Assembly (NCBI GenBank): GCA_963692525.1
Contig: OY829953.1
Location: 3,908,720-3,972,719, forward strand
DNA length: 64,000 nt
Source: Opitutales bacterium
GTDB lineage: Bacteria; Verrucomicrobiota; Verrucomicrobiia; Opitutales; PNEW01
Direction: 5' to 3'
The number at the start of each line of letters is the position of its first letter. The first letter of the stretch is position 1. The notes under the pieces are model-generated. The model was not told the origin of the DNA and made no database searches. It was given only the letters and a program-made list of their open reading frames with translations. Shown in pieces: positions 3,386 through 63,692 of this stretch. The translations under genes were made by a program, and so were the position numbers.

Positions 3386-3403
3386 TATGGGGTATCAAAA
3401 TAG

Positions 3404-3478
3404 CTTCGTCTTCGTCCTCTTTTTCCACAGCTTGCTATAACACGGACGAAGAGACTGACGTGGACGTAGACGAAGATT
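3404..3478. mobile_element. Shortest family-A element (75 bp, termini only)
   Basis: CTTCGTCTTCGTCC at the left end and GGACGTAGACGAAGATT at the right end are inverted copies. The right 37 nt match the right ends of the 14449-14802 and 26405-26820 elements. It sits 19 nt after the stop of the upstream gene. Confidence 0.55.
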
Positions 3479-3551
3479 AAAAATATAAACTTATTTGGAT
3501 CTTAATTCTTTATTTTATAAATTCGCGCTCTACTATTCGGTTTCAATTCGC

Positions 3552-4386: not shown

Positions 4387-4734
4387 TCAGGCAGCAGCTG
4401 CAACCTTGGATGAATTCCTATTTGAATCTGTGGGGAATTTACCGCGCGACTTGAGATCAATAAACTCAACATTATGGGTTACGAGAACTATGCGACTGCG
4501 ATTTTCTCCCTCCTTATTTTGCCAGGTCTCCTGTTTAAGATAGCCGCTCAGCAATACCTTTGATCCCTTCTTTAAATAACTCTGCAAATGATCCTGATTC
4601 CAGACTTCAATCGGTAGAAACAGCGTTCGTTCTCCCTGATTACAGGCTAGAGTAAATTTGCAGAGGGTATTTTCTCTGAGGGGTACTACTTCAATATCAG
4701 CAGTGAGATTTCCTGTGATGTGCACAATGTTCAT
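4387..4734 (-). CDS. ssb: Single-stranded DNA-binding protein-like OB-fold protein, short, no acidic C-terminal tip
   Basis: VHITGNLTADIEV ... YLKKGSKVLLSGYLKQETWQNKEGENRSRIVLVTHNVEFI aligns by eye with the bacterial SSB OB fold. The tail ends ...NSSKVAAAA rather than the D-D-D-I-P-F type. Confidence 0.65.
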   Translation of the reverse strand: MNIVHITGNLTADIEVVPLRENTLCKFTLACNQGERTLFLPIEVWNQDHLQSYLKKGSKVLLSGYLKQETWQNKEGENRSRIVLVTHNVEFIDLKSRGKFPTDSNRNSSKVAAAA

Positions 4735-4916: not shown

Positions 4917-5978
4917 ATGAAAAAAAATAATCCCTTCTCTGGACTGGATATCACCGCGGTCTATGGACTCCTATTCCCCGCATTATTCCTTCTCTTCATC
5001 GGGCACGGCTTCGCGGGTGAAAAACCGGAAGGTGACCCGTCAATCCTGTCACCCGGAGCTGAATTAGAGTTATTGTTTAGCGACACCTTTTTTGCTGAGG
5101 GTCCCGCCGTTGCACGCGATGGATCCGTTTACTTCAGCGATATTACCTTTACCTTCAGATCTAACATGCAGGCAGGGCGTATCTGGAATTATAATCCGGA
5201 AACCGGAATCACAAAGATATTCCGCTCCCCTAGTGGCATGTCCAATGGAATCAAGTTTGATGCGCGGGGAAGGATGATCGTCGCGGAGGGCGCAGATTAT
5301 GGCGGTCGCCGTGTTACGCGCACCGACCTGACGACCGGGAAGACTGAAATCATTGCAGGCTTATATCAGGGTCGACCTTTTAATTCGCCTAATGATATCG
5401 CGATCGACGAAAAGGAACGTATTTATTTTAGCGACCCACGGTATCTCGGGCATGAACCGATTGAACAACCCATCATGGGAGTCTATCGCGTCGATCCAGA
5501 TGGAACGATAGAATTAATCGTAACGGATGCGGGCAGACCGAATGGCATCGCAATTTCACCCGATCAGAAATCACTCTATGTAGTGAGCAATGATGATGGT
5601 TCACTCGGCTTTGATCGCCTGCCTGAAGACACCGTTTATCATAAAGGACGCATGGCTCTCTTGGCTTACGATCTTTCCGAAGCTGGCACGGCTTCCTTCA
5701 GAGAAGTCCTTGTCGATTACTCTCCACAAGATGGACCCGATGGTCTAACGGTCGACGTTGAAGGTAATCTCTACGTCGCGGTACGTGATTTAACAAGGTA
5801 TGGAATTTATGTCTACACGCCCACAGGAAAGGAATTAGCATACATTCCCACTCCACAGGTACCAACAAATGTTGGATTTGGCAGGGGGCAGGAAAGCAAC
5901 ACGCTTTATATTACCGCTGAATCAGATCTCTTACGAATAAAGGTAAATAAGAAAGGTTACCAACTTCCTCCTCGGTAG
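4917..5978 (+). CDS. SMP-30/gluconolactonase/LRE-like lactonase, secreted
   Basis: It has a signal peptide and repeated propeller motifs (AEGPAV, SNGIKFD, PNDIAID, PNGIAISPD, PDGLTVD). Confidence 0.8.
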   Translation: MKKNNPFSGLDITAVYGLLFPALFLLFIGHGFAGEKPEGDPSILSPGAELELLFSDTFFAEGPAVARDGSVYFSDITFTFRSNMQAGRIWNYNPETGITKIFRSPSGMSNGIKFDARGRMIVAEGADYGGRRVTRTDLTTGKTEIIAGLYQGRPFNSPNDIAIDEKERIYFSDPRYLGHEPIEQPIMGVYRVDPDGTIELIVTDAGRPNGIAISPDQKSLYVVSNDDGSLGFDRLPEDTVYHKGRMALLAYDLSEAGTASFREVLVDYSPQDGPDGLTVDVEGNLYVAVRDLTRYGIYVYTPTGKELAYIPTPQVPTNVGFGRGQESNTLYITAESDLLRIKVNKKGYQLPPR

Positions 5979-11714: not shown

Positions 11715-11970
11715 ATTCTTCGTCACCGTCTTCGTCTGCCTTTTCGTCTTTTATTTTTTAGCTGGTTTTAAGTAAAATATTCTTACAATCCAAGGTGGAG
11801 CGGGCTGCGATTCGGCTGAGCTCATCGAAGTCCTGTCCGACATAGCCTTGGCGACGGCTGATCCCTAGCACGCTTCTTCAATTACGACTTTCTCAAACGC
11901 GCTAGGGACAGCGCGTTCCACCTTTATATATTAAAGAATACTTACGATGAGGCAGACGAAGACGAAGATT
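11715..11970. mobile_element. Family-A element, 256 bp, filled form
   Basis: AATTCTTCGTC...CTTCGTC on the left and GACGAAGACGAAGATT on the right. The interior is GGTGGAGCGGGCTG + 54-nt core module + CCCTAGCACGC...GCGCTAGGG hairpin + CAGCGCGTTCCACC. It lies between convergent genes. Confidence 0.6.
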
Positions 11971-14448: not shown

Positions 14449-14802
14449 CTCTTCGTCTGCCTCTTAGTCTTCGTCCCAGACGCCCTAATACTTCATGATT
14501 ATTGTAGCTTAAGATGGAGCGGGCTGCGATTCGGCTGAGCTCATCGAAGTCCTGTCCGACATAGCCTTGGCGACGGCTGATGCATAGCACGCTCCTTCAA
14601 CTACAACTAACTTAAACGCGTTAGGGATCAGCCATCCTGGAGGGCCACGCTCCTGCCTGTCCGACATAGCCTTGGCATCGGCTGATCGTGGCCGTTAATA
14701 ACATTTCAAAGCGGACGCAATGGAATGCGTCCCTCCATTCCTTATAAAATAATAGGATCTCTATAACAGACGAAGAGCCTGACGTGGACAAAGACGAAGA
14801 TT
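14449..14802. mobile_element. Family-A element, 354 bp long form
   Basis: CTCTTCGTCTGC on the left and GACAAAGACGAAGATT on the right. It is nearly colinear with 26405-26820, including the GGAGGG-GGCCACG...CGTGGCC-GGACGCAatggaaTGCGTCC-CTCC module. Confidence 0.6.
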
Positions 14803-19118: not shown

Positions 19119-19130
19119 GTGAGGGGCAAC

Positions 19131-19180
19131 AATCTTCGTCTTCGTCTCGCTGTAATAAGCACAATAGCACGGCAAGGGAA
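19131..19180. repeat. Family-A remnant (left terminus only)
   Basis: AATCTTCGTCTTCGTC followed by sequence resembling the interior of 3404-3478. No right terminus is present. Confidence 0.4.
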
Positions 19181-21577: not shown

Positions 21578-22423
21578 ATGGAAAGTAAAGCTAAGAAAAA
21601 AGTAGAGCGAACAAATAAGTTGCAGACGGGAACCGGTGAACGTCACCTCTCAGATGAAGAGAGGCATTTTTTTGATGTCAGGGGATACCTGGTAGTGGAA
21701 AATTTCCTGAAGCCCGACCAGGTTAATGAAGCACGCGAAGCGCTGCAGAATACAGCTGAAAATCCCCTCGCGAGTATAACGGTCAATAAAAAAGATTCCG
21801 AATTTGAGCTGTTAAACATCGTTGAAAACGGTGGCATTATCGAGGATGCGATCACTTTCACGCGACTGCTCCAGGCAATGGAAGAAATAATCTGGGGCAG
21901 CCAGGTCAGGCTAGTCGCTTCCCGTGGACTGATCAGAGAACCCGGTAGTATAGAATTACTTACTCAAGGAGGAAAAGCTGATCCCAGGCGATATACAAGA
22001 TATCGCTGTTTTGTCGAAGGTGAATTTCGCTGCCTTATGACAACCTGTCTCGTTGCCCTTAATAATTGCGCGCATGGCAATGGAACGTTTTGTATAATTC
22101 CATCCAGTCATAAAAGTAATTTTTCCCACCCCTACAGCAACGTGTCCCTGGAAGCAGTTCCCGTCTTGAAAGACATCGCTCTAAAGGCCGGAGATGCGAT
22201 AATCTTCAGCGAAAATTTATCCCACGCGATGAAATCGCCAATTAATGAAACACACAATTGGCTCTCCTATCAATACGGTCCATCGTACATGTTGAGTTGG
22301 CCGGGTTGCGAAGCATCCATGGAACTACGCACAAGAACCGCGGATAGCGAAATTAAAACGCGCCTCTTAAAGACTCCCTATTACCACCCCTGGGATCATT
22401 ATTATAAAGATATTGTGGATTAG
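21578..22423 (+). CDS. Phytanoyl-CoA dioxygenase (PhyH) family protein, tandem paralog
   Basis: Contains FFDVRGYLVV, FCIIPSSHKSNF and NLSHA, with the same architecture as the upstream gene. Confidence 0.75.
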   Translation: MESKAKKKVERTNKLQTGTGERHLSDEERHFFDVRGYLVVENFLKPDQVNEAREALQNTAENPLASITVNKKDSEFELLNIVENGGIIEDAITFTRLLQAMEEIIWGSQVRLVASRGLIREPGSIELLTQGGKADPRRYTRYRCFVEGEFRCLMTTCLVALNNCAHGNGTFCIIPSSHKSNFSHPYSNVSLEAVPVLKDIALKAGDAIIFSENLSHAMKSPINETHNWLSYQYGPSYMLSWPGCEASMELRTRTADSEIKTRLLKTPYYHPWDHYYKDIVD

Positions 22424-22541
22424 GGGCAAAGGGGCAAAAAGATGTCATCGATATAACAGGTGTTTGATCAATTATTTCAGGTGGGGTTGCATTAAAATTA
22501 TTCCAATTGTAGCACGAAGCTCTATTTTCCATCTCTAAACA

Positions 22542-22573
22542 TTTTGACTTTTTGACCTTTTGACTTTTTGACT
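22542..22573 (+). repeat. (TTTTGACY)4 octamer array
   Basis: ttttgact ttttgacc ttttgact ttttgact, ending 8 nt before ATG 22582. It is identical to the array at 34291-34322. Confidence 0.9.
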
Positions 22574-22581
22574 TAACAACA

Positions 22582-23295
22582 ATGTCAACAGTGCTTATAA
22601 CTGGAGCAAACCGCGGAATTGGCCTGGCTTTGGTCAAAGAATTTCTAAAACAAGGTGACCGCGTTATTGCTACCGCTCGTCAACCTGACAAGGCAGATGA
22701 GTTAAATGCATTGAGCAAAACTTACCACGAACCGAATTACACTGTCATTCCAATGGATGTCACAAATGCCGATTCGGTGAATCAGGCTTATTCAAAAATC
22801 GCTCAATCATTTTCCAGCCTCGATATTCTCATAAATAACGCGGGTGTGAATCCTGATTCAAAAGATGAAAAATTTGAAGATATGGACATTGCGCATTTTG
22901 AGATGGCCTTCGATGTTAATGTTGTCGGCGTCGCACGTGTCTCTCGGAGTTTACTTCCGCTCCTCAGAAAAGGTAATGAACCGCGCATCATTAATATTTC
23001 ATCCGGCGCGGGATCAATAGCGATAAAAACTAATTTTAAACTCTACAGTTACAGTACTTCAAAAGCGGCATTAAACATGTTTTCCCGCACATTGGCCGCT
23101 GAATTAAAACCGGAGGAGATAATTGTTGTTGCCCTCAGTCCCGGCTGGGTCAGGACGGATATGGGAGGAGATGACGCTGAGATTTCACCAGAAGAATCGG
23201 CAAATTGCATCGTCAACACCGCTCATCGATTGACGATGGACAATTCAAGCCAGTTTTTTGGTCGTGACGGCAATCAGGACGATTATAATTGGTAA
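22582..23295 (+). CDS. Short-chain dehydrogenase/reductase
   Basis: Contains ITGANRGIGLA, NNAG and YSTSKAA motifs. Confidence 0.85.
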   Translation: MSTVLITGANRGIGLALVKEFLKQGDRVIATARQPDKADELNALSKTYHEPNYTVIPMDVTNADSVNQAYSKIAQSFSSLDILINNAGVNPDSKDEKFEDMDIAHFEMAFDVNVVGVARVSRSLLPLLRKGNEPRIINISSGAGSIAIKTNFKLYSYSTSKAALNMFSRTLAAELKPEEIIVVALSPGWVRTDMGGDDAEISPEESANCIVNTAHRLTMDNSSQFFGRDGNQDDYNW

Positions 23296-24877: not shown

Positions 24878-24898
24878 ATTGAAAATCTAAAGATTTTC

Positions 24899-25022
24899 AG
24901 TGTTACGTTTTAGGTGTTAGGTTTTAAGTTTAATTCAAAAGATAGGTTCTAAACTAATAATTCCCAAATAAGTTAACGTTTTTGTGACGATACTTAACAC
25001 CTAACACCTAAAACGTAACACT
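24899..25022. repeat. 31-bp inverted repeat with 62-nt spacer
   Basis: The arm AGTGTTACGTTTTAGGTGTTAGGTTTTAAGT (24899-24929) pairs with 24992-25022 with one mismatch. TAACACTGCGACAGC then follows twice (25016-25030 and 25034-25048). Confidence 0.85.
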
Positions 25023-25065
25023 GCGACAGCCCCTAACACTGCGACAGCATACTTGTCTTAACCGA

Positions 25066-26404: not shown

Positions 26405-26820
26405 CTCTTCGTCTTCGCTTGCCACGTCGTAGACTTCTGCGAAGACGGGTATGCCTTCATCGTCTTGTAGGTTACACCTTGATACTTCATAAATATTGTA
26501 GCTTAAGGTGGAGCGGGCTGCGATTCGGCTGAGCTCATCGAAGTCCTGTCCGACATAGCCTTGGCGACAGCTGATCTCAAGCACGCTTCTTCAATTACGA
26601 CATAATTAAACGCGCTAGGGACAGCGCGTTCCACCTTAATATTGCCATAGAAATATGGAGGGCAACGCTCCTGCTTGTCGGCCATAGCCATGGCGTCGGC
26701 TGATCGTGGCCGTTGACAACATTTCAAAGCGGACGCAATGGAATGCGTCCCTCCATTCCTTATAAAATAATAGGATCTCTATAACAGACGAAGAGACTGA
26801 CGGGGACGAAGACGAAGATT
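26405..26820. mobile_element. Family-A element, 416 bp, longest copy
   Basis: CTCTTCGTCTTCGC on the left and GACGAAGACGAAGATT on the right, with all modules present (see findings). ORF-track entries 26285..26584 and 26503..26727 lie inside it and are not credible. Confidence 0.65.
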
Positions 26821-34108: not shown

Positions 34109-34266
34109 GATGGAACGCGCTGTCCCTAGCGCGTTAGTTATAAGTATTAATAATAGAAGCGCGCTGAGGACCAACATTCGCCAAGGCTATGGCAGGCAGG
34201 ACTTCGATGAGCTCCCTTCGGCATGAGCTCAGGGCCGAATGCAGCCGAATCGCAGCCCGCTCCACC
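34109..34266. repeat. Family-A core in inverted orientation, long-insert variant, no terminal repeats
   Basis: GATGGAACGCGCTGTCCCTAGCGCG ... CGCAGCCCGCTCCACC, carrying the extra TTCGGC/GCCGAA hairpin variant also seen at 63920-63965. Confidence 0.7.
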
Positions 34267-34290
34267 TAAAACGCGTTCGCGTCTTCAACG

Positions 34291-34322
34291 TTTTGACTTT
34301 TTGACCTTTTGACTTTTTGACT
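34291..34322 (+). repeat. (TTTTGACY)4 octamer array
   Basis: The same 32-mer as 22542-22573, located 76 nt upstream of ATG 34399. Confidence 0.9.
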
Positions 34323-35632: not shown

Positions 35633-35691
35633 CATTTGAGGATATCGGGCTTCGCCCTCGGCACGCTTCACCGCATTCACGCATAACCGCC
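35633..35691 (-). repeat. C unit (GTGCCGAGGGCGAAGCCCGATATCCTCAAATG on the minus strand) with flanking homology
   Basis: It matches 50201-50232 and 59361-59392, and ends 12 nt before ATG 35703. Confidence 0.8.
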
Positions 35692-37657: not shown

Positions 37658-37697
37658 GGGGTTTGCGGGCAGGTAGTAATTCTCATCATACAAATAA

Positions 37698-37807
37698 GCT
37701 TCGTCTTCGTCCAATTTATTTCTATACTCCCAGTAACCTATGAGCGAGTGTAGGATTAGATGAAGTCTAGTGTTTCACTAATCCTTGAATACTCTGAGAC
37801 GAAGATT
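37698..37807. mobile_element. Family-A short element (110 bp)
   Basis: GCTTCGTCTTCGTCC on the left and CTGAGACGAAGATT on the right, with an internal GGATTAG/CTAATCC inverted repeat. Confidence 0.5.
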
Positions 37808-40793: not shown

Positions 40794-41669
40794 ATGAGCC
40801 ATAAATACTCGGTTATCCTTTGCACCCTTGCCGCAGATGGTGGTGACGTCTGGAAAAATCCTCGCGAAGTATTGGAAACGGTTGCGGAAGCGGGATACGA
40901 TGGCGTCGACCTCGATGCGGAACCGGATAGAATCCCTGAAGAGAAATTCAACGAGGTACGAGATATGGCTACTTCCCTCGGGTTGAAGATCCCGTTTCTC
41001 GTTGGAGCCTGGGGTTACTGGCACGCTGGTGAAGAGCGCAATTTGGCCTCACCTGATGCCGCCATCCGCGCTAATGCAGTCGCTTACGCGAAAAAATGTG
41101 TCGACCTGGCAGCTACATTCGACGAACCCCCGTGCTATGAAATAGTGCCCTGCCCTGTCGAATCCGGTTACCCGCGTACGAGCATACCCTATAGCGAATT
41201 GCGCGAGAATTTTTTACGGACGACGGAGGAAATTGCAAAATACGCCGCTGAACGTAATGTGAATATTGCGATCGAGCCGATAAATCGATTCGAGTCGTAT
41301 GCCGGATTCATGAATACTATTCCTGAGGTAATGAGCTTAATTGATCAGCTTGAGATGGACAACCTCTATATCCTTGCAGACTTTTTTCACGTCAACATGG
41401 AAGACGGCCCAATTACCGAAGCTTTGCAGCGGGCGGGTGAACGACTCTACCACATCCACCTGGCCGACAGCAACCGTCAGGCGCCCGGGACCGGGCACAT
41501 CGATTTCCTCGACGTAATCCGTACCCTGAATGAAATTGGGTTCGACGGTTACCTGGCACTGGACAGCATCCCCGCATTACCCGACTGGAAAACACTCGTG
41601 CGTCAGACGCTGCCGTTTATGAAACAAATGGAAGCCGCCGCCGCTTTGCAGGAGAAAATAAGACACTGA
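40794..41669 (+). CDS. Sugar phosphate isomerase/epimerase (xylose isomerase-like TIM barrel)
   Basis: Contains GYDGVDL, IAIEPINRFE, LADFFHVNMED and YHIHLADSNR motifs. Confidence 0.8.
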   Translation: MSHKYSVILCTLAADGGDVWKNPREVLETVAEAGYDGVDLDAEPDRIPEEKFNEVRDMATSLGLKIPFLVGAWGYWHAGEERNLASPDAAIRANAVAYAKKCVDLAATFDEPPCYEIVPCPVESGYPRTSIPYSELRENFLRTTEEIAKYAAERNVNIAIEPINRFESYAGFMNTIPEVMSLIDQLEMDNLYILADFFHVNMEDGPITEALQRAGERLYHIHLADSNRQAPGTGHIDFLDVIRTLNEIGFDGYLALDSIPALPDWKTLVRQTLPFMKQMEAAAALQEKIRH

Positions 41670-41673
41670 TCGA

Positions 41674-41838
41674 GTCAAAAGGTCAAAAAGGGAGGAGCGC
41701 TGATGCGCGTATTAAATTATAAGATAATTAACTTTATACAAGCATTGCTACTTTTTACTGATCACTGATAAATGATTTCTGTCTAGACATCCTGCATCAT
41801 CCAACGTTTTGACCTTTTGACTTTTTGACCTTTTGACT
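41674..41838. repeat. Inverted pair of octamer arrays flanking a 116-bp AT-rich core
   Basis: (GTCAAAAR)2 at 41674-41689 and (TTTTGACY)4 at 41807-41838, lying between convergent genes. Confidence 0.85.
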
Positions 41839-41842
41839 AAAT

Positions 41843-42538
41843 TCATTCATGCGGGATAACGCGGCGCTGGAGTTTTTCGAGGGTAAACTCATCGCTTTTT
41901 AAAAATTTAAAGAAATCGGCTTCTTCCTTGAGCACCTCCTTGGCGCGCTTCGCGACATCCTCGGTGATGTCTTTCGGGACGGAGACCAGCCCGCTTTCAT
42001 CACCGTGCAGCAGGTCACCCGGGGCAACAGTCAGTCCACCAACTTCAATACTAATATTGAAGTCGAGGAAGGCGCCGTATCCGTGTGAGACAACCCATCC
42101 GGCAGAAAATACCTGAAAATCTGGCGTGCGCTTGCGGATCGCCGTTCGGTCACGGCAGTTAGCATCGGTGACGACCCCCACCATACCAAGCCTCTCGGCA
42201 AAGGTGCAAAACATGTCCCCGAAAAGGCAGCAGCGTTTGCGATCGTGTCCGACATGTTGAACAACAAGGATGACAGGATTTGGTGCCGCATCGATTTGCG
42301 CGACGAGGTCGTCAACCCGCGAGGTTCTTCTGTCGCCGGGCGTGGTGGAATCGGCGGTCGCGGTAAGCGCGTAGCCGACCATCGGTGCACCGATTTCAGG
42401 AAATTGACAGATCAATTCATTGTTGGCGAATCCCATCGTCGGATCACGCACCTCGAAATGTTCAATCGCGTTAGATATTGTTGCGCTGTCGTATCCACGC
42501 AGATCCTCGATTACTTTTGGTATAGATTTTTCACTCAT
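41843..42538 (-). CDS. RraA-like protein, second paralog
   Basis: Contains YDSATISNAIE, VGVVTDANCRD and GDLLHGDESGLVSVP. Confidence 0.75.
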   Translation of the reverse strand: MSEKSIPKVIEDLRGYDSATISNAIEHFEVRDPTMGFANNELICQFPEIGAPMVGYALTATADSTTPGDRRTSRVDDLVAQIDAAPNPVILVVQHVGHDRKRCCLFGDMFCTFAERLGMVGVVTDANCRDRTAIRKRTPDFQVFSAGWVVSHGYGAFLDFNISIEVGGLTVAPGDLLHGDESGLVSVPKDITEDVAKRAKEVLKEEADFFKFLKSDEFTLEKLQRRVIPHE

Positions 42539-48061: not shown

Positions 48062-48073
48062 TAAAAATCGGGG

Positions 48074-48330
48074 GGCCAGAGAGCCAGAAAATCGGAAAGC
48101 CAGCGAGAAGGAACAAGTGATTCATGACGTTGTATAAGAAGCGTGTCGGGGGAGCCAGCCTTCCTTGTTTAGTCTCAGACTACATCGATTAATCAGACAG
48201 TCCGACTATCTGGTCCTCTGGTTTGGTAGATGTCGTTCCACGACTGCGGAACTCGGTACTGACTTTCCGACATTCCGGTTTTCCGGTATTCTGGATTTCT
48301 GGATTTCTGGCCCTCTGGTTTTCAGGATGT
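48074..48330. repeat. Composite low-complexity/palindromic intergenic block including a D unit
   Basis: GCCAGAGAGCCAGAAAATCGGAAAGCCAGC on the left is answered by TTCCGGTTTTCCGGTATTCTGGATTTCTGGATTTCTGGCCCTCTGG on the right. The D unit at 48210-48261 matches 59431-59482. Confidence 0.7.
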
Positions 48331-48336
48331 CTCTCC

Positions 48337-49592: not shown

Positions 49593-49598
49593 CTATTA

Positions 49599-49674
49599 GT
49601 CAAAAGGTCAAAAAGTCAAAAGGTCAAAAAGGAAATGCGATTAAGCTTTTGACTATTTGACCAGTACCTTTGAC
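49599..49674. repeat. Inverted octamer arrays filling the gap between two cistrons
   Basis: (GTCAAAAR)4 at 49599-49630 starts 6 nt from the ATG (49592, minus strand). The degenerate CTTTTGAC TATTTGAC ... CTTTGACC at 49646-49674 abuts the upstream stop at 49675. Confidence 0.85.
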
Positions 49675-50139
49675 CTATTCTAAAACTTCCGGAACAATCA
49701 TCCAAGCAATAGACCAATTGTCAATTTCCCGGTATTCTAGGCAGAGAATTCCGCCGTTTTGAAAGATAACAACATCTGAATTTTCGTCGGCGATTACGAG
49801 CAGTGCCGCAAGTCTATTTAGAAAAGGTAAATGCCCAACGATCATAATGTCGGCTCCACCCTCTTCTATCACCTGTTTCATATCTCCTACCGGATCATTG
49901 GGGGATAATCCATCACGCTCGATTAATTCGCACGACGAGGCAATCGATGGATGTAAAATCTCGGCTGTATGGCGCGCGCGCGTCTTACCACTGTGCCAAA
50001 GACTGCCGATTCTCAGACTTAACGATTTTAGGGCGACAGCTACTTTTTCAACATCACGAATACCCTTATCAGTAAGTCCACGATCAGGGTCTTCCTCTTT
50101 CGATTTTGCTTCGCCGTGTTGGACCAGGTATAAGCGCAT
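49675..50139 (-). CDS. sixA: SixA-like phosphohistidine phosphatase (histidine phosphatase superfamily)
   Basis: MRLYLVQHGEA (Q in place of the usual R of the RHG motif), HSGKTRARHTAE and VGHLP; 154 aa. Confidence 0.65.
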   Translation of the reverse strand: MRLYLVQHGEAKSKEEDPDRGLTDKGIRDVEKVAVALKSLSLRIGSLWHSGKTRARHTAEILHPSIASSCELIERDGLSPNDPVGDMKQVIEEGGADIMIVGHLPFLNRLAALLVIADENSDVVIFQNGGILCLEYREIDNWSIAWMIVPEVLE

Positions 50140-50145
50140 ATATCA

Positions 50146-50296
50146 GTCAAAAGGTCAAAAAGTCAAAAGGTCAAAAGGATATGCGTGAACGCGATTAAGC
50201 GTACCGAGGGCGAAGCCCGACATCCTCAAATGTGGAAATAACTTTCACCCTTAAACTTTTTGACCTTTTGACCTTTTGACCTTTTGACCTTTTGAC
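50146..50296. repeat. Inverted octamer arrays flanking a C unit
   Basis: (GTCAAAAR)4 at 50146-50177 starts 6 nt from ATG 50139 (minus strand). The C unit is at 50201-50232 and (CTTTTGAC)5 at 50256-50296. A GCGAC aagg GTCGC hairpin follows. Confidence 0.9.
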
Positions 50297-50315
50297 GTCG
50301 CGACAAGGGTCGCTA

Positions 50316-50969
50316 CTATAGTTCTTCCAACACTATTGCTCGAGTCCAGAATGCGGTGGCGTGTCGCATTCTGACGGGAAGACCGATAAAGAAAACACGT
50401 GGTTTAGTGATTTGATCAAAACCCCTTCCATTGTCGATAAACCCGATTCCGGCGAGCAGGAGTTTGGCATCCGGAGTCGGCGCCTGGTCCAAGGGAGTAC
50501 CCGGTGGAGCGAGCGTTATGTTTTCTAATCCTAATGCCTTTATACCCGTTTCTACGAGCCAGTCGACCGCTTCAAATGTAAGATAGGCACCGTCCGGACT
50601 ACTCCACGCAAGGACAATGTCATTTTGCTTTACGCCAGCATTTTTAAAATCGGTCGGGGTAAGGGGTTGACCCGCTTTCTCTGTAAAGTTACAGGCCACG
50701 GCTTCTCCCAGGTAAGTTTCAATCGGCATTGAGGCGAGATCCGCACCGGTCTCCGAAAATTTATAGGAAGCTTCAACGTGCGTTCCGTTATGAGTCTGGC
50801 TCCTGATAAAATGCATGCGGGCATTGTCATCTGAATGATAAAACTCGGAGAGCTCAACCGGACGCCCATTAATGGGTTTCCCGTGTCGATGGTGCCCATC
50901 CGTCTTCTGTTCACTGGGAATTAATTCGTGTGATAAATCTATGATACGGTAGTTAGATAGTTTAATCAT
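50316..50969 (-). CDS. Cyclase-family protein (kynurenine-formamidase-like fold), divergent
   Basis: SQTHNGTHVEA resembles the HxGTHxD motif, but the downstream D/H residues are not obvious. Confidence 0.55.
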   Translation of the reverse strand: MIKLSNYRIIDLSHELIPSEQKTDGHHRHGKPINGRPVELSEFYHSDDNARMHFIRSQTHNGTHVEASYKFSETGADLASMPIETYLGEAVACNFTEKAGQPLTPTDFKNAGVKQNDIVLAWSSPDGAYLTFEAVDWLVETGIKALGLENITLAPPGTPLDQAPTPDAKLLLAGIGFIDNGRGFDQITKPRVFFIGLPVRMRHATAFWTRAIVLEEL

Positions 50970-52995: not shown

Positions 52996-53186
52996 CGTTT
53001 CCTTTCAGGATTATGAGGGTTAATGTATTAAGTGTGGTGAATAAACTCCAGATCAATGAGACGCTATCTCTTTTTTAATTACTAAAACGGGTATGCTCAT
53101 ACTTTTAAACGGGGTGACGAAAGTCCACATCAGCTCTGCGGGGACGTAGATACCGGCTTTTGGGAAAACATTCATATATATAAAAG

Positions 53187-53711
53187 TTATTCTTTTTTCC
53201 TTTGCAGCTCTTTTTGATAAAGCGCCGTTCCATAAAATTCATAGGATGCCGCAGCATCCGGAACATCCACGACGTGGACTGTGAAACGAGAAGGTAAACC
53301 GTTATCTGGTAAATATTCCTGAAAGAAATTCCGGTAGGCATAGGCTTCGCGCAGCCTTTTTTGTTCAGCTGCGTATCCCTCAGGGTCGACAAGTGGATTT
53401 GGAGATTTCGGTTGGCAACCAAAGGCATGAATTTCAATAAAATCTACTTCCTTCAATGAATCACAGATCCCTGCATCGATCAGCCATTTCTCCCAGCACT
53501 TGAATACAAGGGGAATTTCTTTCTCCGGATCCATTGAAACGAGTTCGTCTCTTTCTAATACTGCTTTCGCTGAATACCCTCCGGTCAATCCTGAAAAACA
53601 GATCTTCAGATCTCCATCCGGAAGTGCTTCCGTTACAAGAGAAGACAAAACAGCTTGATCCCCTTCATAATAATAAGTCAACTTTCCACGCTTTTTTATC
53701 TTAAATGCCAT
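53187..53711 (-). CDS. Hypothetical protein
   Basis: A 174-aa ORF. No family was recognised. Confidence 0.45.
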   Translation of the reverse strand: MAFKIKKRGKLTYYYEGDQAVLSSLVTEALPDGDLKICFSGLTGGYSAKAVLERDELVSMDPEKEIPLVFKCWEKWLIDAGICDSLKEVDFIEIHAFGCQPKSPNPLVDPEGYAAEQKRLREAYAYRNFFQEYLPDNGLPSRFTVHVVDVPDAAASYEFYGTALYQKELQRKKE

Positions 53712-53874
53712 GACCGAGTAATGTTTATTTAAGACTATTCTTTACTGTGTTTAAATCCTTATCTTTGAAAGGTTCTTTATTTTTAAATAGACCTTTATCT
53801 TCCTCTAAAATTTAGCAATCTATATAGTGTAAGTTATATACGAACGAATTCGAAGATTAAAAATTCAAGCAAAT

Positions 53875-54075
53875 CACCCCAGCGGGGTGTAACATTCGTA
53901 GCCCGCAGCGTAAGCTGTGGGTTAAAATATGTGCCATATAAATTAAGCCCCAGCGGGGCGACACAATAACCGTCGAAAGCGATGTTGTGTCGCCCCGCTG
54001 GGGCTCTGAATTATAAAATATCACTCCCACCCACAGCTCACGCTGTGGGCTAAACCTATGCCGCCCCTCCGGGGC
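53875..54075. repeat. Mirror-symmetric array of five hairpins
   Basis: CACCCCagcGGGGTG (53875-89). CCCGCAGC-GTAA-GCTGTGGG (53902-21). A 20-bp perfect stem, GCCCCAGCGGGGCGACACAA / TTGTGTCGCCCCGCTGGGGC (53947-54004). CCCACAGC-TCAC-GCTGTGGG (54030-49). GCCCCtccGGGGC (54063-75). Confidence 0.85.
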
Positions 54076-54206
54076 TGATAGAGTACGTTAAGGATAAGTT
54101 TTAACATCTTCCTTTTTACATTAATTCGTAAGTATCTAACAGTGATGAGGGGGAAGCCGATGACCAAGATAACCGTGATTATACTTTGCCTTAATGCCTT
54201 TTATAA

Positions 54207-58401: not shown

Positions 58402-58536
58402 CGGTGAATGGTGAAATAATTAATATTAATTGAAAACAGGATATGTCGAAATCAAGAGCTGAATCAATTTCCTATTAATCGTCAGTACTTTTTAAGTCGA
58501 CATTAGACTTTCGGCCTTCGAACTTATGACTAAAAA

Positions 58537-59271
58537 ATGAAAGCACTTCTCGTAAGGGTTGGAATTGATAGCGCTTTTGGTAATTGGAATGCGCCGATAG
58601 ATCCGCAATCGAGGGAATTTGTTTACCTTCCCATTCCAGAAGTTATGCCGAGCCATAAGCATCTGGAGCGTCGTTATACCGAGACCTTGCCAGTATTAAA
58701 ACAGTTTTGTGAAAAATATAAATTGGATTTAGCGCGTGATCTTAATTTTCCAACTTCTCTCTTAAATAAAAAAATGCATTTGGATCCGGATTTCCATGAA
58801 CTGACTTATGGTGATAATGGTGCTAGACGCGGCGTTAATATGTCCCGTATGAAATCTGGTGATGTTCTTGCCTTTTATTCAAGTTTGCGACCAATTAAAG
58901 CGTGTGCGCATACTCTAATATATGCTATAATTGGTCTTTATGTAGTTAAAGAAGTTGTTTCTGTAGGAGAAGTGCAGAAGAAGCTATGGAAACAGAATGC
59001 TCATACCCGTAGAGCAAATCCGCTGGCAGCGGAGATTGTCGTGAGAGCAGAAAAGAATGAATCAGGGCGCTTGGAAAGCTGCATCCCGATTGGGGAGTGG
59101 CGTGATCGAGCTTATCGTGTGCGCGGGGATCTTATTAAAAAGTGGGGAGGAATATCAGTAAATAATGGCTACATACAACGTAGTGCCGTACCACCAGCAC
59201 TTACTCACCCCCAGCGATTTTATGACTGGTTTTTAAAGCAAAACGTCACGCTTATTAAGACGAATAATTAA
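58537..59271 (+). CDS. Hypothetical protein (possible nucleotide-modification-associated fold; unverified)
   Basis: 244 aa. The N terminus, LLVRVGIDSAFGNWNAPIDPQSREFVYLPIPE, reminds me of an R-x-G-x-D-S ... P-I-P-[DE] signature. That is recollection only, with no search run. Confidence 0.5.
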   Translation: MKALLVRVGIDSAFGNWNAPIDPQSREFVYLPIPEVMPSHKHLERRYTETLPVLKQFCEKYKLDLARDLNFPTSLLNKKMHLDPDFHELTYGDNGARRGVNMSRMKSGDVLAFYSSLRPIKACAHTLIYAIIGLYVVKEVVSVGEVQKKLWKQNAHTRRANPLAAEIVVRAEKNESGRLESCIPIGEWRDRAYRVRGDLIKKWGGISVNNGYIQRSAVPPALTHPQRFYDWFLKQNVTLIKTNN

Positions 59272-59279
59272 GTTTATAG

Positions 59280-59535
59280 GTCAAAAAGTCGAAAAGTATA
59301 CGCGTACCGAGGTCGAAGTCCGACATCCTCACATGCGTTTAAGCGGTTATGCGATAAAGAGTGCCGAGGGCGAAGCCCGACATCCTCAAATGGGAATAAG
59401 CGGATACTGCTATGAATTTCCTGCAACACTCTGACCTTCTGGCTTGGAAGATGTCGTTCCGCGAATATGGAACTCGGAACCGGTTCTCTAGCCTTCCTGC
59501 ATAAATCCGCAATCGCATATCGCAAATCGACAATT
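59280..59535. repeat. Mosaic of octamers, two C units, a D unit and AATCCGCAATCG motifs
   Basis: GTCAAAAA GTCGAAAA at 59280-59295, C units at 59304-59335 and 59361-59392, the D unit at 59431-59482, and AATCCGCAATCGCATATCGCAAATCG at 59507-59532. It fills the whole gap between convergent genes. Confidence 0.85.
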
Positions 59536-61197: not shown

Positions 61198-61545
61198 ATA
61201 ATCTTCGTCTGCGTCTTTAATAAGGCTCCTTAGAAATGGAGGGACGCACGGAGCATGTCGGCCATAGTACCGCAACAGCGAAGACGACGGCTGATTGCGT
61301 CCGTTTGACAAGATGGTTACGGCCACGATCAACCGACGCCAAGGCTATGGCCGACAGGCAGGAGCGTGGCCCTCCAGGCGACGGCTGACCCCAAGCGCGC
61401 TTCTTCATTTACAACTCACTTAAACGCGCTAGGGACCAACCTTCGCCAAGGCTATGGCTGGCAGGACTTCGATGAGCTCAGCCGAATCGCAGCGCGTTCC
61501 ACCATGATATTATAGTTAATGATTGGACAGACGAAGACGAAGATT
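61198..61545. mobile_element. Family-A element, 348 bp, inverted module order, with an extra nested core
   Basis: AATAATCTTCGTCTGCGTC on the left and GACGAAGACGAAGATT on the right. The GGACGCA/TGCGTCC hairpin carries a 47-nt core-like insert in its loop. Confidence 0.6.
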
Positions 61546-63440: not shown

Positions 63441-63484
63441 AACTAAGCTGAATGGTGTTAGGATAGAACGTATGGATTTGTCGT

Positions 63485-63692
63485 ATTAGTCTTCGTCTCT
63501 GGCTAATATAGATTATCTTGCAATCCATGGTGGAGCGGGCTGTCCCTAGCACGCTTCTTCAATTACAACTTAATCAAACGCGCTAGGGACAGCGCGTTCC
63601 ACCTATCTATTCTATTAATAACTGGATGGACGAGGAGGCTGACCCGTCTTCGCAGTAGTCTACGACGTGGCAAGCGCGGACAGAGACGAAGA
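63485..63692. mobile_element. Family-A element, empty form (no core module)
   Basis: ATTAGTCTTCGTC on the left and GACAGAGACGAAGATG on the right. The interior GGTGGAGCGGGCTG-TCCCTAGCACGC ... GCGCTAGGGACAGCGCGTTCCACC is an uninterrupted 26-bp-arm palindrome. Confidence 0.6.

What the first reader, a model, noticed from the sequence alone, without database searches (positions are those of the whole stretch)
22542..22573. (TTTTGACY)n octanucleotide arrays at nine loci, three ending 6-8 nt before a start codon
Perfect 8-nt-period arrays of 2-5 units occur at 22542-22573, 34291-34322 (an identical 32-mer), 41674-41689, 41807-41838, 49599-49630, 49646-49674 (degenerate), 50146-50177, 50256-50296 and 59280-59295. 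In sense orientation they sit immediately upstream of ATG 22582 (8 nt away), ATG 49592 on the minus strand (6 nt) and ATG 50139 on the minus strand (6 nt). That leaves no room for a Shine-Dalgarno sequence, although other genes here have AGGAGG or AAGGAG. A fourth array lies 76 nt upstream of ATG 34399. Possible roles include an SD-independent U-rich translation element, a protein-binding array, or a copy-number-variable spacer. I cannot tell which from sequence alone.
Basis: seen in the sequence. Interest (0 to 1): 0.7.

Follow-up and report, generated by a model that had tools for sequence, protein, structure and literature searches.

The report
Octamer-repeat arms of foldback intergenic elements
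The (TTTTGACY)n runs are real, but they are the outward-facing repeat arms of hairpin-forming spacer elements that fill the gaps between genes in a marine Opitutales bacterium and end a few bases from start and stop codons alike, so they are not a dedicated ribosome-binding substitute.

Summary
In detail: 22 two-unit matches against 0.01 expected by chance. The arrays are not start-codon elements. They are the terminal arms of inverted-repeat intergenic elements that read 5'-(GTCAAAAR)n - variable core - (YTTTTGAC)n-3'. All 13 pairs found are in that order. In 53 arrays from the window and two related Opitutales genomes, the 3' end of the T-rich strand lies within 15 nt of a coding boundary 35 times, against 6.7 expected. 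Twenty of those boundaries are starts and 15 are stops. The inner side is that close to a gene only once. "Sense orientation before ATG" therefore follows from the inverted-repeat geometry. The array at 22542 also has a decayed partner arm at 22424-22441, directly after the upstream stop codon. Only about 17% of gene starts in this lineage have a Shine-Dalgarno-like motif, so "no room for SD" is not special. Relatives show unit-number changes (4 vs 2, 4 vs 3, 4 vs 1), decay, and replacement by other repeat-armed hairpin families at the same junctions. The closest known analogues are cyanobacterial STRR, long simple sequence repeats, the TAACTGA repeats of Beggiatoaceae, and REPIN/BIME. Function is inferred: REP-like RNA hairpins, with a tolerated U-rich leader. 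I rate it a new variant of a known kind, of moderate interest.

The parts
22424..22441 (+). Decayed A-rich arm (GGGCAAAGGGGCAAAAAG). It starts directly after stop codon TAG 22421-22423 of the PhyH-like ORF 21578..22423.
   Evidence: The orthologous position reads GGTCAAAAGGGCAAAAAG in L105 and has three clean GTCAAAAR units in L107.
22442..22541 (+). Core (spacer) of the element at the primary locus.
   Evidence: It is partly conserved in L105, L106 and L107.
22542..22573 (+). T-rich arm of 4 units (Y = T,C,T,T). It ends 8 nt before ATG 22582 of a short-chain dehydrogenase gene.
   Evidence: The same 4 units occur in L105 (99% aa identity) and L106 (92%). L107 (81%) has 3 units plus 1 degenerate unit.
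34271..34290 (+). Inner end module: the palindrome ACGCGTTCGCGT followed by the pyrimidine-rich CTTCAACG.
34291..34322 (+). T-rich arm of 4 units, 76 nt upstream of ATG 34399. That gene has its own AAGGAG.
   Evidence: L106 has only 1 unit plus TTTTAACT at this position.
41673..41690 (-). A-rich arm as read on the + strand, 2 units, beginning 3 nt after the stop codon of ORF 40794..41669.
41691..41806 (.). Core between convergent genes. It begins with the mirrored end module AGGGAGGA-GCGCTGATGCGC.
41807..41838 (+). T-rich arm of 4 units, ending 4 nt before the stop codon of the convergent ORF 41843..42538(-).
   Evidence: stem between the arms, z -3.2.
49598..49631 (-). T-rich arm on the minus strand, 4 units, ending 5 nt before ATG 49592(-) of the AP_endonuc_2 gene.
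   Evidence: L100 has 2 units here, a clean 16-nt difference.
49647..49674 (+). Degenerate partner arm. It abuts stop codon 49675-49677 of the His_Phos_1 ORF 49675..50139(-).
   Evidence: fold -28.8 kcal/mol, z -2.8.
50145..50178 (-). T-rich arm on the minus strand, 4 units, ending 5 nt before ATG 50139(-).
   Evidence: L086 has 3 units. L100 has 3 units plus 1 degenerate unit.
50179..50257 (.). Core carrying the GCGTGAACGC palindrome and the dispersed motif CCGAGGGCGAAGCCCGACATCC (50204-50225).
   Evidence: (family D14).
50258..50297 (+). Partner arm of 5 units, 18 nt from stop codon 50316-50318 of the cyclase ORF 50316..50969(-). It is absent in L086, L100 and L103.
   Evidence: In the sense RNA it forms a 33-bp stem with 50145-50178 (-80.8 kcal/mol, z -9.6).
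59279..59296 (-). A-rich arm as read on the + strand (GGTCAAAAAGTCGAAAAG), beginning 7 nt after the stop codon of ORF 58537..59271.
   Evidence: The L016 ortholog has 1 unit here plus a 4-unit T-arm 6 nt from the convergent stop codon.
58508..58531 (+). Degenerate T-arm (CTTTCGGCCTTCGAACTTATGACT), ending 5 nt before ATG 58537.
   Evidence: The same position holds clean TTTTGACCTTTTGACT in L086 and TTTCGACATTAGACTTTTGACA in L016.

Best explanation
The (TTTTGACY)n arrays are the outward-facing terminal arms of a lineage-specific family of foldback, hairpin-forming intergenic repeat elements in an Opitutales (Verrucomicrobiota) chromosome. A complete element reads 5'-(GTCAAAAR)n - [AGGGAAGAG-type purine run] - [GCGY-N4-RCGC palindrome] - variable core - [RCGC-N4-GCGY palindrome] - [pyrimidine run] - (YTTTTGAC)n-3'. 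It occupies essentially the whole spacer between two genes, so each arm ends 0-15 nt from a start or stop codon. Those points are shown directly.

The next points are shown by comparison with relatives. The arms behave like microsatellites: they gain and lose whole 8-nt units, decay to degenerate or 7-nt units, lose one arm, or are replaced by other repeat-armed hairpin families at the same junction. Their position is inherited vertically down to about 75-80% identity.

The rest is inferred. When both arms are co-transcribed they pair into a long stem of up to 33 bp, with the upstream stop codon and the downstream start codon at its foot. I expect this to act like REP/BIME elements: a barrier to 3' exonucleases, a possible RNase III processing or partial termination site, and an occluder of the downstream start region that must be opened by the ribosome finishing the upstream gene. 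The U-rich arm is tolerated next to the ATG because this lineage initiates mostly without a Shine-Dalgarno sequence. Spread and turnover most likely occur by slippage plus recombination or gene conversion among the many dispersed copies. A dedicated transposase is not excluded.
For: Architecture. All 13 array pairs less than 400 nt apart are in A-arm..T-arm order and none is reversed, across convergent, co-directional and divergent gene pairs. Of 53 arrays, the outer distance is smaller than the inner distance in 46 against 7 (p=4e-8). The median outer distance is 10 nt and the median inner distance 143 nt. The outer side is within 15 nt of a gene in 35 cases against 6.7 expected under uniform placement, and the inner side in 1 case. 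The 35 boundaries split into 20 starts and 15 stops.

The inner end module is conserved: C at position -2 in 66 of 69 arrays, G avoided in the flank, an RCGC-N4-GCGY palindrome, and a last unit ending in T in 50 of 69.

The primary locus has a partner arm directly after the upstream stop codon. It is decayed in the window and clean in L107.

Predicted stems: -80.8 kcal/mol with z -9.6, z -3.2, z -2.8, and z -3.8 for L107.

Turnover: 4 vs 2 units, 4 vs 3, 4 vs 1. One arm is present only in the window. A different family of repeat-armed hairpins sits at the same junction in L100 and in L108.

Three other repeat-armed inverted-repeat families close spacers elsewhere in the window. SD-like motifs occur at only 17% of gene starts.

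REP precedent for hairpins near stop codons comes from PMC12306157, which cites Liang et al. 2015 and Newbury et al. 1987.
Against: There are no expression data, so co-transcription of the two arms, RNA pairing and any effect on stability or translation are all untested.

Paired arrays also occur between divergent genes (3 of 13 pairs), where the arms would not lie on one transcript.

The hairpin is not strictly maintained. At the primary locus in the window it folds no better than shuffled sequence (z +0.64), yet the T-arm stays perfect. The Y/R variants of the two arms do not co-vary consistently; I compared these by eye in the sequences.

No target-site duplication, uniform core or transposase was found, so the way new copies arise is unknown. 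Why both ends lie so close to coding sequence is explained only loosely, as the element being the whole spacer.

Gene calls behind the statistics are crude ORF calls. Most of the loci were also retrieved because they contain arrays.
Confidence: 0.6

Rival explanations
1. SD-independent translation element. The U-rich (UUUUGACY)n leader just upstream of the AUG recruits ribosomes, through ribosomal protein S1 or a Csp/CsrA-like RNA-binding protein, or serves as the site of a post-transcriptional regulator. This is what was proposed for the TAACTGA repeats of Beggiatoaceae.
For: Twenty arrays end 5-15 nt before a start codon, with a sharp mode at 7-8 nt, and none of those gaps has an SD. T-arms upstream of starts persist in relatives even where the partner A-arm has decayed or is absent. 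The precedent is PMC4679880. In the T orientation the array carries TGA in all three frames just before the AUG, read directly from the sequence, which would stop any upstream translation close to the start.
Against: Fifteen arrays abut stop codons in the equivalent geometry, including both sides of a convergent gene pair. The orientation before ATG is forced by the inverted-repeat structure. SD-less starts are the norm here, about 83%. When both arms are present the leader is predicted to be locked in a long duplex. The array at 34291 lies 76 nt upstream of a gene with its own AAGGAG.
Confidence: 0.15
2. Non-autonomous mobile element (MITE- or REPIN-like). The arrays are terminal inverted repeats recognised by a transposase encoded elsewhere in the genome. 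Single arrays are decayed remnants.
For: The polarity of the arms is fixed (13/13). The sub-terminal palindrome and terminal nucleotide are conserved. Copy number is high, 9 arrays in 64 kb. Singlets occur alongside doublets, as with REP and REPIN (PMC3116915). A different element family sits at the same junction in close relatives.
Against: Flanks inspected show no consistent target-site duplication. Cores are heterogeneous, 30-305 nt. No clean empty-site versus filled-site pair was seen, only replacements and unit changes. No transposase lies in the window. Positions are inherited vertically down to about 75% identity. Two divergent gene pairs have only 18-19 nt of non-element DNA between them, which is hard to reconcile with simple insertion.
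Confidence: 0.25
3. Bidirectional transcription terminator or insulator. The two arms form a stem, and the outer UUUU-containing units serve as the U-tract. Transcription entering from either side stops before the next gene, while transcripts that start inside the core carry only one arm and read out.
For: A-rich 5' arm and T-rich 3' arm is the polarity of a bidirectional intrinsic terminator. Canonical terminators and sigma-70-type promoters are not enriched over shuffles in the first 20 kb. Four of eight long convergent spacers in the window are closed by repeat-armed inverted repeats. A hairpin of some family is kept at the same convergent junction in the window, L100 and L103.
Against: The consensus scan finds no terminator-like site in the elements. 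The loops are 30-305 nt long and the stems are AU-rich. Two of the other three repeat-armed families have the opposite polarity, T-rich 5' arm and A- or purine-rich 3' arm, so polarity looks like a family trait. Pairs occur at divergent junctions. No convincing outward promoter was found in the one core scanned, at the primary locus.
Confidence: 0.2
4. Functionless microsatellite by-product. These are slippage-prone T-rich octamers that arise and decay neutrally in spacers of a genome that tolerates them.
For: Whole-unit gains and losses, decay to degenerate or 7-nt units, and non-covarying arms are all seen. Similar TTTYGRCN arrays embedded in mosaics of other 7-8-nt arrays occur in many phyla without any clear placement rule. 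This fits the long simple sequence repeat literature summarised in PMC4679880.
Against: Neutral slippage does not explain the strict outward polarity, the tight abutment to coding boundaries (35 observed vs 6.7 expected), the conserved inner end module, or the invariable A..T order of pairs.
Confidence: 0.2
5. Double-stranded DNA binding array for a nucleoid-associated or regulatory protein, or a phase-variable contingency switch.
For: The motif is iterated, and TTGAC resembles a -35 hexamer. Unit number varies between relatives.
Against: An 8-bp period puts successive sites on different faces of the helix. Spacing to the ATG leaves no room for a -10 element, by inspection. The adjacent genes are ordinary metabolic enzymes, not surface or virulence genes. 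Unit number is identical in the 99% and 92% relatives at the primary locus.
Confidence: 0.07

Closest known systems
TAACTGA heptamer direct repeats of marine Beggiatoaceae, cyanobacteria and Bacteroidetes (MacGregor 2015, PMC4679880)
   Same: Both are short tandem arrays of 2-6 units at many intergenic loci. Both often end a few nucleotides before a start codon that lacks a ribosome-binding site. Both have a scattered cross-phylum distribution, and function is unknown in both. In both, the forward orientation contains stop codons in all three frames because the period is not a multiple of 3.
   Different: There, 147 of 170 sets point toward a start codon, 12 toward a stop codon, and there is a single inverted repeat. 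Here, starts and stops are about equal (20 vs 15), and the arrays are arms of inverted repeats (13 pairs). The unit is an octamer with a different sequence, and a conserved palindrome plus pyrimidine-run inner module is attached.
Cyanobacterial STRR (short tandemly repeated repetitive sequences) and long simple sequence repeats (Mrazek 2007, as summarised in PMC4679880)
   Same: Both are dispersed intergenic tandem arrays of 5-11-nt units, with different unit families juxtaposed in mosaics and slippage-type copy-number change. The scan also hit Tolypothrix, Phormidium and Aerosakkonema.
   Different: STRR units are heptamers of different sequence (from my own knowledge: CCCCAGT, TTGGTCA, CAACAGT). 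No rule of outward polarity or abutment to coding boundaries has been described for them. The host here is a verrucomicrobium.
REP / BIME / REPIN elements of Proteobacteria (PMC3116915, PMC12306157)
   Same: Both are extragenic, highly repeated, occur as inverted doublets that fold into hairpins with decaying singlets, and lie close to stop codons. REP elements have documented RNA-level roles in mRNA stabilisation, attenuation and ribosome stalling when close to the stop codon. Both are inherited vertically over long times.
   Different: REP arms are single imperfect palindromes of about 20-35 nt with a GTAG-type head, not tandem octamer arrays. REPINs are uniform in size and linked to a RAYT transposase. 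Here the cores are heterogeneous and no RAYT is known.
Eukaryotic foldback transposons (Drosophila FB, Galileo, Tetris; PMC3573991, PMC4079207)
   Same: Both have long terminal inverted repeats built internally from short tandem repeats, with variable arm length and variable or absent middle segments.
   Different: Foldback transposons are eukaryotic, kilobase-scale and associated with a transposase. Nothing here shows transposition.

Membership tests
Long simple sequence repeats / STRR-type tandem arrays | Head-to-tail perfect or near-perfect copies of a 5-11-nt unit, longer than chance | tested here: met
   2-5 units of 8 nt, 22 matches against 0.01 expected.
Long simple sequence repeats / STRR-type tandem arrays | Many dispersed, mainly intergenic loci per genome | tested here: met
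   Nine loci in 64 kb. Sixty-one arrays in 264 kb of Opitutales DNA, essentially all outside ORFs.
Long simple sequence repeats / STRR-type tandem arrays | STRR proper: the specific cyanobacterial heptamer units | tested here: not met
   The unit is the octamer TTTTGACY. The STRR unit sequences are taken from my own knowledge.
TAACTGA-type start-proximal repeats (MacGregor 2015) | Strong bias to forward orientation immediately upstream of start codons; rarely toward stops; almost never inverted | tested here: not met
   Twenty starts against 15 stops within 15 nt, and 13 inverted pairs. In BOGUAY the figures are 147 toward starts, 12 toward stops and 1 inverted repeat.
TAACTGA-type start-proximal repeats (MacGregor 2015) | Canonical RBS absent between repeat and start codon | tested here: met
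   Gaps of 5-11 nt contain no GGAG-type motif. However, only 17% of all starts have such a motif.
REPIN / REP-RAYT | [quoted passage not shown] | tested here: met
REPIN / REP-RAYT | Each arm is a single imperfect palindrome (REP) of conserved sequence; the doublet is of uniform length | tested here: not met
   Arms are tandem octamers of 2-5 units, and cores vary from 30 to 305 nt.
REPIN / REP-RAYT | A cognate RAYT (Y1 transposase) gene flanked by the repeats | not testable with these tools
   No transposase was found among the ORFs of the window that were scanned, nor among the called genes of the related loci apart from one HTH_Tnp_1 in L108. The rest of the genome could not be scanned.
MITE | Terminal inverted repeats flanked by a target-site duplication | tested here: not met
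   Inverted ends are present, but the flanks show no consistent duplication (inspection). TATT at 49594-97/49675-78 is the only candidate.
MITE | Filled and empty sites with precise boundaries between related genomes | tested here: inconclusive
   Relatives show unit changes, arm loss and replacement by other families rather than clean insertions.
Intrinsic (Rho-independent) terminator | Short-loop G+C-rich stem immediately followed by a U-tract | tested here: not met
   The consensus scan finds none in the elements. The stems are AU-rich with 15-300-nt loops. Only the A..T polarity fits.
Phase-variation contingency repeat | Repeat inside an ORF or between promoter hexamers of a surface or virulence gene; unit number varies among close strains | tested here: not met
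   The neighbours are metabolic enzymes. Unit number is identical at the primary locus in the 99% and 92% relatives. Variation is seen only between more distant genomes.
Integron gene-cassette attC | attC with R''/R' core sites (RYYYAAC / GTTRRRY), co-oriented cassette array next to intI | tested here: not met
   No such core sites occur in the arms. The elements are dispersed over 37 kb, and the flanking genes lie in all orientations.

The most novel reading that the evidence does not exclude
The repeat-armed hairpins are a bacterial counterpart of foldback elements that define gene boundaries. Their microsatellite termini would be recognised by an unknown enzyme, or serve as portable homology, so that whole spacers, or genes bracketed by T-arm...A-arm, are exchanged cassette-fashion. 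One example fits: the His_Phos_1 gene is flanked by directly repeated end modules, and it is absent together with the cyclase gene from L101. At the same time the U-rich arm, with TGA in all three frames 5-8 nt before the AUG, would work as an SD-independent (re)initiation pad. The recurrence of the same octamer at multiple loci in Phycisphaerae, Planctomycetaceae, Bacteroidales and cyanobacteria would then reflect a shared mechanism rather than coincidence.
Probability: 0.15. Interest if true: 0.75.

Novelty: new variant of a known kind. Interest (0 to 1): 0.45.

Why it matters
Short tandem arrays next to start codons have been noted in cyanobacteria and Beggiatoaceae for decades without a mechanism. 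This lineage offers a cleaner anatomy: a strict outward polarity, both arms present, a conserved inner module, and a graded series of relatives at 99% to 74% identity in which arms expand, decay and are swapped. That makes several questions directly testable with existing long-read MAGs and metatranscriptomes. Do such arrays act as RNA hairpins like REP elements? Are they leaders for SD-less initiation? Are they recombination substrates? It is also a practical warning for annotation. In these genomes promoters, terminators and ribosome-binding sites cannot be inferred from E. coli-type consensus sequences.

Tried and rejected
Promoter reading. TTGAC units as -35 boxes cannot work for the adjacent gene, because the array ends 5-8 nt from the ATG and leaves no place for a -10 element and a transcription start (inspection). 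The scan finds no promoter using the arrays for those genes.

Canonical terminator. None was found in the elements.

Known RNA families. No Rfam match even at E<=1. Only Acido-Lenti-1 was found, elsewhere in the window.

Phage origin. Only 3 hits in 2.9 million viral contigs.

Exact-sequence literature search. It returned only an unrelated mammalian Nur77 response element.

RNA-level selection through G·U-tolerant variants. The sense transcript of the 50145/50258 element pairs perfectly through G·U. In L057, however, the sense transcript carries the A·C mismatches instead, so there is no consistent signal (inspection).

Polarity as proof of terminator function. Rejected because the other repeat-armed families have their own fixed polarities, and two of them are opposite.

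Extension of the outward-polarity rule to other phyla. It is not seen there.

Perfect-repeat census. It under-detects these arrays because Y alternates between C and T.

Pairing of the array with the 16S anti-SD tail. By inspection, using my own knowledge of the usual GAUCACCUCCUUA tail, no complementarity exists.
Full report
OBSERVATION. A two-unit pattern, TTTTGACYTTTTGACY with up to one mismatch, matches 22 times in the window against 0.01 expected from dinucleotide-preserving shuffles. Tandem Repeats Finder reports the main arrays independently. The gaps to ATG 22582, 49592(-) and 50139(-) are 8, 5 and 5 nt and contain no GGAG-type motif. The array at 34291 lies 76 nt upstream of ATG 34399, which has its own AAGGAG. 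The adjacent ORFs are ordinary enzymes: a short-chain dehydrogenase, xylose-isomerase-like TIM barrels, a histidine phosphatase, a cyclase and an RraA-like protein. The SDR start at 22582 is credible, because the Pfam adh_short match begins at residue 3.

SOURCE ORGANISM. The window lies on a 1.17-Mb metagenome-assembled contig. It is about 92% identical in DNA to an Opitutales MAG (CBDCNV01, locus L086) and about 80% identical to another (CBDANS01, L016). Protein look-ups gave syntenic loci from further relatives at 99%, 96%, 92%, 89%, 81%, 75% and 74% amino-acid identity. No transposase or phage gene was found among the window ORFs scanned. The content is chromosomal metabolism.

ANATOMY. 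Where two arrays lie within 400 nt of each other, they always read 5'-(GTCAAAAR)n ... (YTTTTGAC)n-3'. This holds for 13 of 13 pairs in the window plus 25 loci of the two Opitutales MAGs, and no pair has the opposite order. It holds for convergent gene pairs (41673/41807), co-directional pairs (49598/49647, 50145/50258) and divergent pairs (for example L086 269-548, L029 5567-5798, L030 4292-4441). An inverted repeat looks the same from both strands. A gene to the right on the + strand, or to the left on the - strand, therefore necessarily sees TTTTGACY in sense upstream of its ATG. A gene that ends at the element sees GTCAAAAR in sense after its stop codon.

The real regularity is polarity and abutment. 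Using crude ORF calls on 264 kb (85% coding), 53 arrays had measurable distances on both sides. The side toward which the T-rich strand points 3' (the outer side) is closer to a coding boundary than the inner side in 46 cases against 7 (binomial p=4e-8). The median distances are 10 nt (outer) and 143 nt (inner). The outer side is within 15 nt of a gene in 35 cases, against 6.7 expected for uniform placement, and the inner side in one case. The 35 boundaries are 20 start codons, at distances that pile up at 7-8 nt, and 15 stop codons, at -2 to 13 nt. In some of these the stop codon overlaps the last bases of the array.

The inner edge of the array is also conserved. It is a pyrimidine run with C at -2 in 66 of 69 arrays and almost no G, preceded by a small RCGC-N4-GCGY palindrome. 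The last unit ends in T in 50 of 69 arrays. When it ends in G, another palindromic module follows. Cores are heterogeneous, 30-305 nt. They contain other tandem arrays, (GCGGAAAT)n, (GAACAGT)12 and (CCCTGAA)9, and shared motifs such as CCGAGGGCGAAGCCCGACATCC.

THE PRIMARY LOCUS IS ALSO A PAIR. Directly after the TAG stop codon of the upstream PhyH-like gene, the window has GGGCAAAGGGGCAAAAAG (22424-22441). The 99% relative has GGTCAAAAGGGCAAAAAG, and the 81% relative has three clean GTCAAAAR units. The T-arm has the same four units (T,C,T,T) in the window and in the 99% and 92% relatives, and three units plus one degenerate unit in the 81% relative. In the 74% relative the junction holds a different inverted repeat, built from GGTTTAGG.../...CTAACAC units.

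EVOLUTION.
- At the His_Phos_1 to AP_endonuc_2 junction, the window has four units and the 96% relative has two, a clean 16-nt difference in an otherwise conserved context. The 75% relatives have degenerate 7-nt units that abut the ATG.
- Upstream of His_Phos_1, every relative that carries this gene has a T-arm (4, 3, 3+1, or degenerate units), but the five-unit partner arm exists only in the window. Some of the others (L100, L103, L104) have (GGATGCA)n there, and its copy number differs even between the two 75% assemblies.
- At the convergent junction 41670-41842, the 96% relative carries a GGTGTTA/TAACACC-type inverted repeat instead. The 75% relatives carry a degenerate GTCAAAG-type hairpin.
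- At 34291, the 92% relative has one unit plus TTTTAACT. The window additionally has an insertion of about 160 nt from another dispersed family inside the ACGCG palindrome.
- Upstream of ATG 58537, the window has a degenerate array, CBDCNV01 has two clean units plus a large mosaic with (GTCAAAAG)5 and (GGGTTCA)9, and CBDANS01 has degenerate units plus an inserted PF05635 gene.

Positions are therefore inherited over long times, while unit number and sequence turn over as in microsatellites, and whole modules are exchanged.

THE ARRAYS ARE NOT UNIQUE IN THIS GENOME. At least three other unit families form repeat-armed inverted repeats that close spacers in the window:
- TCTTCG/CGAAGA hexamers (3398-3484, 11717-11968, 61200-61545);
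- CCAGAAA/TTTCTGG-type octamers (48062-48336, -43 kcal/mol end-to-end duplex);
- GGTGTTA/TAACACC (24894-25023).

Each family has its own fixed polarity, and two of them are opposite to the TTTTGACY family. Polarity is therefore a family trait rather than proof of terminator function.

SD USAGE. Only 31 of 178 crude gene starts (17%) have GGAG/GAGG/AGGA at -18..-4, and the upstream regions are about 65-70% A+T. An array occupying the SD position is unremarkable in this lineage.

STRUCTURE. As sense RNA, the 50145/50258 element forms a 33-bp uninterrupted stem (-80.8 kcal/mol, z -9.6) whose 3' foot is 5 nt from the AUG. The 49598/49647 and 41673/41807 elements give z -2.8 and -3.2. The clean ortholog of the primary locus gives z -3.8, while the decayed window copy gives z +0.64. 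Consensus scans find neither terminators nor promoters that use the arrays, and canonical motifs are not enriched over shuffles in the first 20 kb. No Rfam family matches.

DISTRIBUTION. Many come from the two Opitutales MAGs. Several others each come from particular Phycisphaerae, Planctomycetaceae, Bacteroidales, Prevotella and Alteromonadaceae MAGs, plus cyanobacteria. Outside Opitutales the arrays sit inside longer mosaics of related TTTYGRCN units and other 7-8-nt arrays, and they do not show the outward-abutment rule. Viral contigs have only three hits. I could not run control octamers, so I do not know whether this recurrence is exceptional.

INTERPRETATION. Three things are shown. The arrays are the terminal arms of foldback-type intergenic elements with a conserved end module. 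They fill spacers up to the coding boundaries. They evolve by unit slippage, decay and module exchange.

The mechanism is inferred. When co-transcribed, the arms form a long stem bracketing the spacer, which would act as REP/BIME hairpins do. Those roles are protection of upstream 3' ends, processing, attenuation, and interference with ribosomes terminating within about 15 nt (PMC12306157). The stem would also occlude the downstream start until it is opened. The U-rich arm is a tolerated, possibly favourable, SD-less leader.

Several points count against a purely RNA-level role. Pairs occur at divergent junctions. The A-arm has decayed at the primary locus while the T-arm remains perfect. The arms do not co-vary. 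The origin of new copies is unresolved: I found no target-site duplication, no uniform core and no transposase.

One comparison hints at recombination between end modules. His_Phos_1 is flanked by directly repeated end modules, gcttaatcgc...tcc-(TTTTGACY)4. In the 89% relative L101, both it and the cyclase gene are absent. There, the MR_MLE_C stop codon is followed by a J1-like core, (TTTTGACA)2 and the AP_endonuc_2 ATG.

COMPARISON WITH KNOWN SYSTEMS. The closest description in the literature is MacGregor's TAACTGA repeats. These are 2-6 units that end a few nt before start codons lacking an RBS, with scattered occurrence in Beggiatoaceae, cyanobacteria and Bacteroidetes and unknown function. 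They differ in being almost exclusively start-directed and not inverted. Cyanobacterial STRR and Mrazek's long simple sequence repeats cover the tandem-array aspect. REPIN/BIME covers the inverted-doublet, near-stop-codon and RNA-hairpin aspects. Eukaryotic foldback transposons are the only described elements whose inverted termini are themselves tandem repeats. The present elements fail defining features of each family (see the membership table). I therefore file them as a new variant of known kinds of bacterial intergenic repeats, not as a member of any one family.

VERDICT. The translation-element interpretation is largely replaced by "outer arms of hairpin-forming spacer elements", and copy-number variability is confirmed. 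Interest is moderate (0.45). The anatomy is unusually regular, and the graded set of relatives makes old questions about start-proximal tandem repeats testable. The class of phenomenon is known, and no function is demonstrated.

Noticed in passing
window 54030-54076 (+); 53946-54005; 53049-54203: There is an Acido-Lenti-1 sRNA match (44.5 bits, gathering score 37), next to a perfect 21-nt inverted repeat at 53946-53966/53985-54005. Both lie in a 1.15-kb segment, which includes ORF 53187..53711 with no Pfam hit. That segment corresponds to only about 72 nt in the 92%-identical relative L086.
   Followed up: partly
window 3398-3484, 11717-11968, 19128-19146, 37693-37711, 61200-61545: A second repeat-armed inverted-repeat family is built from TCTTCG/CGAAGA hexamers. 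It also abuts gene ends and flanks the large dispersed repeats D1/D3/D7. Its polarity, pyrimidine arm first, is opposite to the TTTTGACY family.
   Followed up: partly
window 48062-48336 and 24894-25023: Two further repeat-armed hairpins occur between convergent genes. One uses CCAGAAA/TTTCTGG-type octamers, with an end-to-end duplex of -43 kcal/mol (z -4.6). The other is a 32-nt, 97% complementary GGTGTTA/TAACACC-type inverted repeat. The latter family replaces the TTTTGACY element at orthologous junctions in L100 and L108.
   Followed up: partly
window 11792-11929, 14511-14648, 26505-26642, 63473-63610; 34110-34270: Large dispersed intergenic repeat families (138 nt, 43 nt and 58 nt) carry the hairpin AACGCGCT-AGGGAC-AGCGCGTT. 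One copy is inserted in the window, relative to L106, inside the ACGCG palindrome next to the 34291 array.
   Followed up: partly
window 50204-50225, 59307-59328, 59364-59385, 35640-35661(-): A 22-nt dispersed motif, CCGAGGGCGAAGCCCGACATCC, has 4 copies against 0 expected. It also occurs in the cores of array-flanked elements in L086 and L100.
   Followed up: partly
L016 ~5230-5560 (window-sense strand); L103 527-925; L104 532-930: A PF05635 (23S rRNA intervening-sequence, four-helix-bundle) gene sits inside the array-flanked divergent spacer upstream of the Nmad3 gene in the 75-80% relatives. It is absent from the window at 58402-58536.
   Followed up: no
window 49675-50969 vs L101 9880-10010: The cyclase and His_Phos_1 genes are absent from the 89% relative L101. 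There, the MR_MLE_C stop codon is followed by a J1-like core, (TTTTGACA)2 and the AP_endonuc_2 ATG. In the window, His_Phos_1 is bracketed by directly repeated end modules. This suggests gene gain or loss by recombination between modules.
   Followed up: partly
whole window and related Opitutales loci: Only about 17% of crude gene starts have an SD-like tetramer. Sigma-70-type promoters and intrinsic terminators are not enriched over shuffles in the first 20 kb. Expression signals in this lineage appear non-canonical.
   Followed up: partly
window 4387-4734 (-): A short ORF of 115 aa matches the SSB family (PF00436, E 6e-17). It stands alone between a convergent and a divergent neighbour.
   Followed up: no
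L103 9325-9490 vs L104 9300-9490: Two near-identical assemblies differ in the copy number of a (CAGGATR)n heptamer array directly after the cyclase stop codon. This is direct evidence of rapid slippage in these spacers.
   Followed up: no
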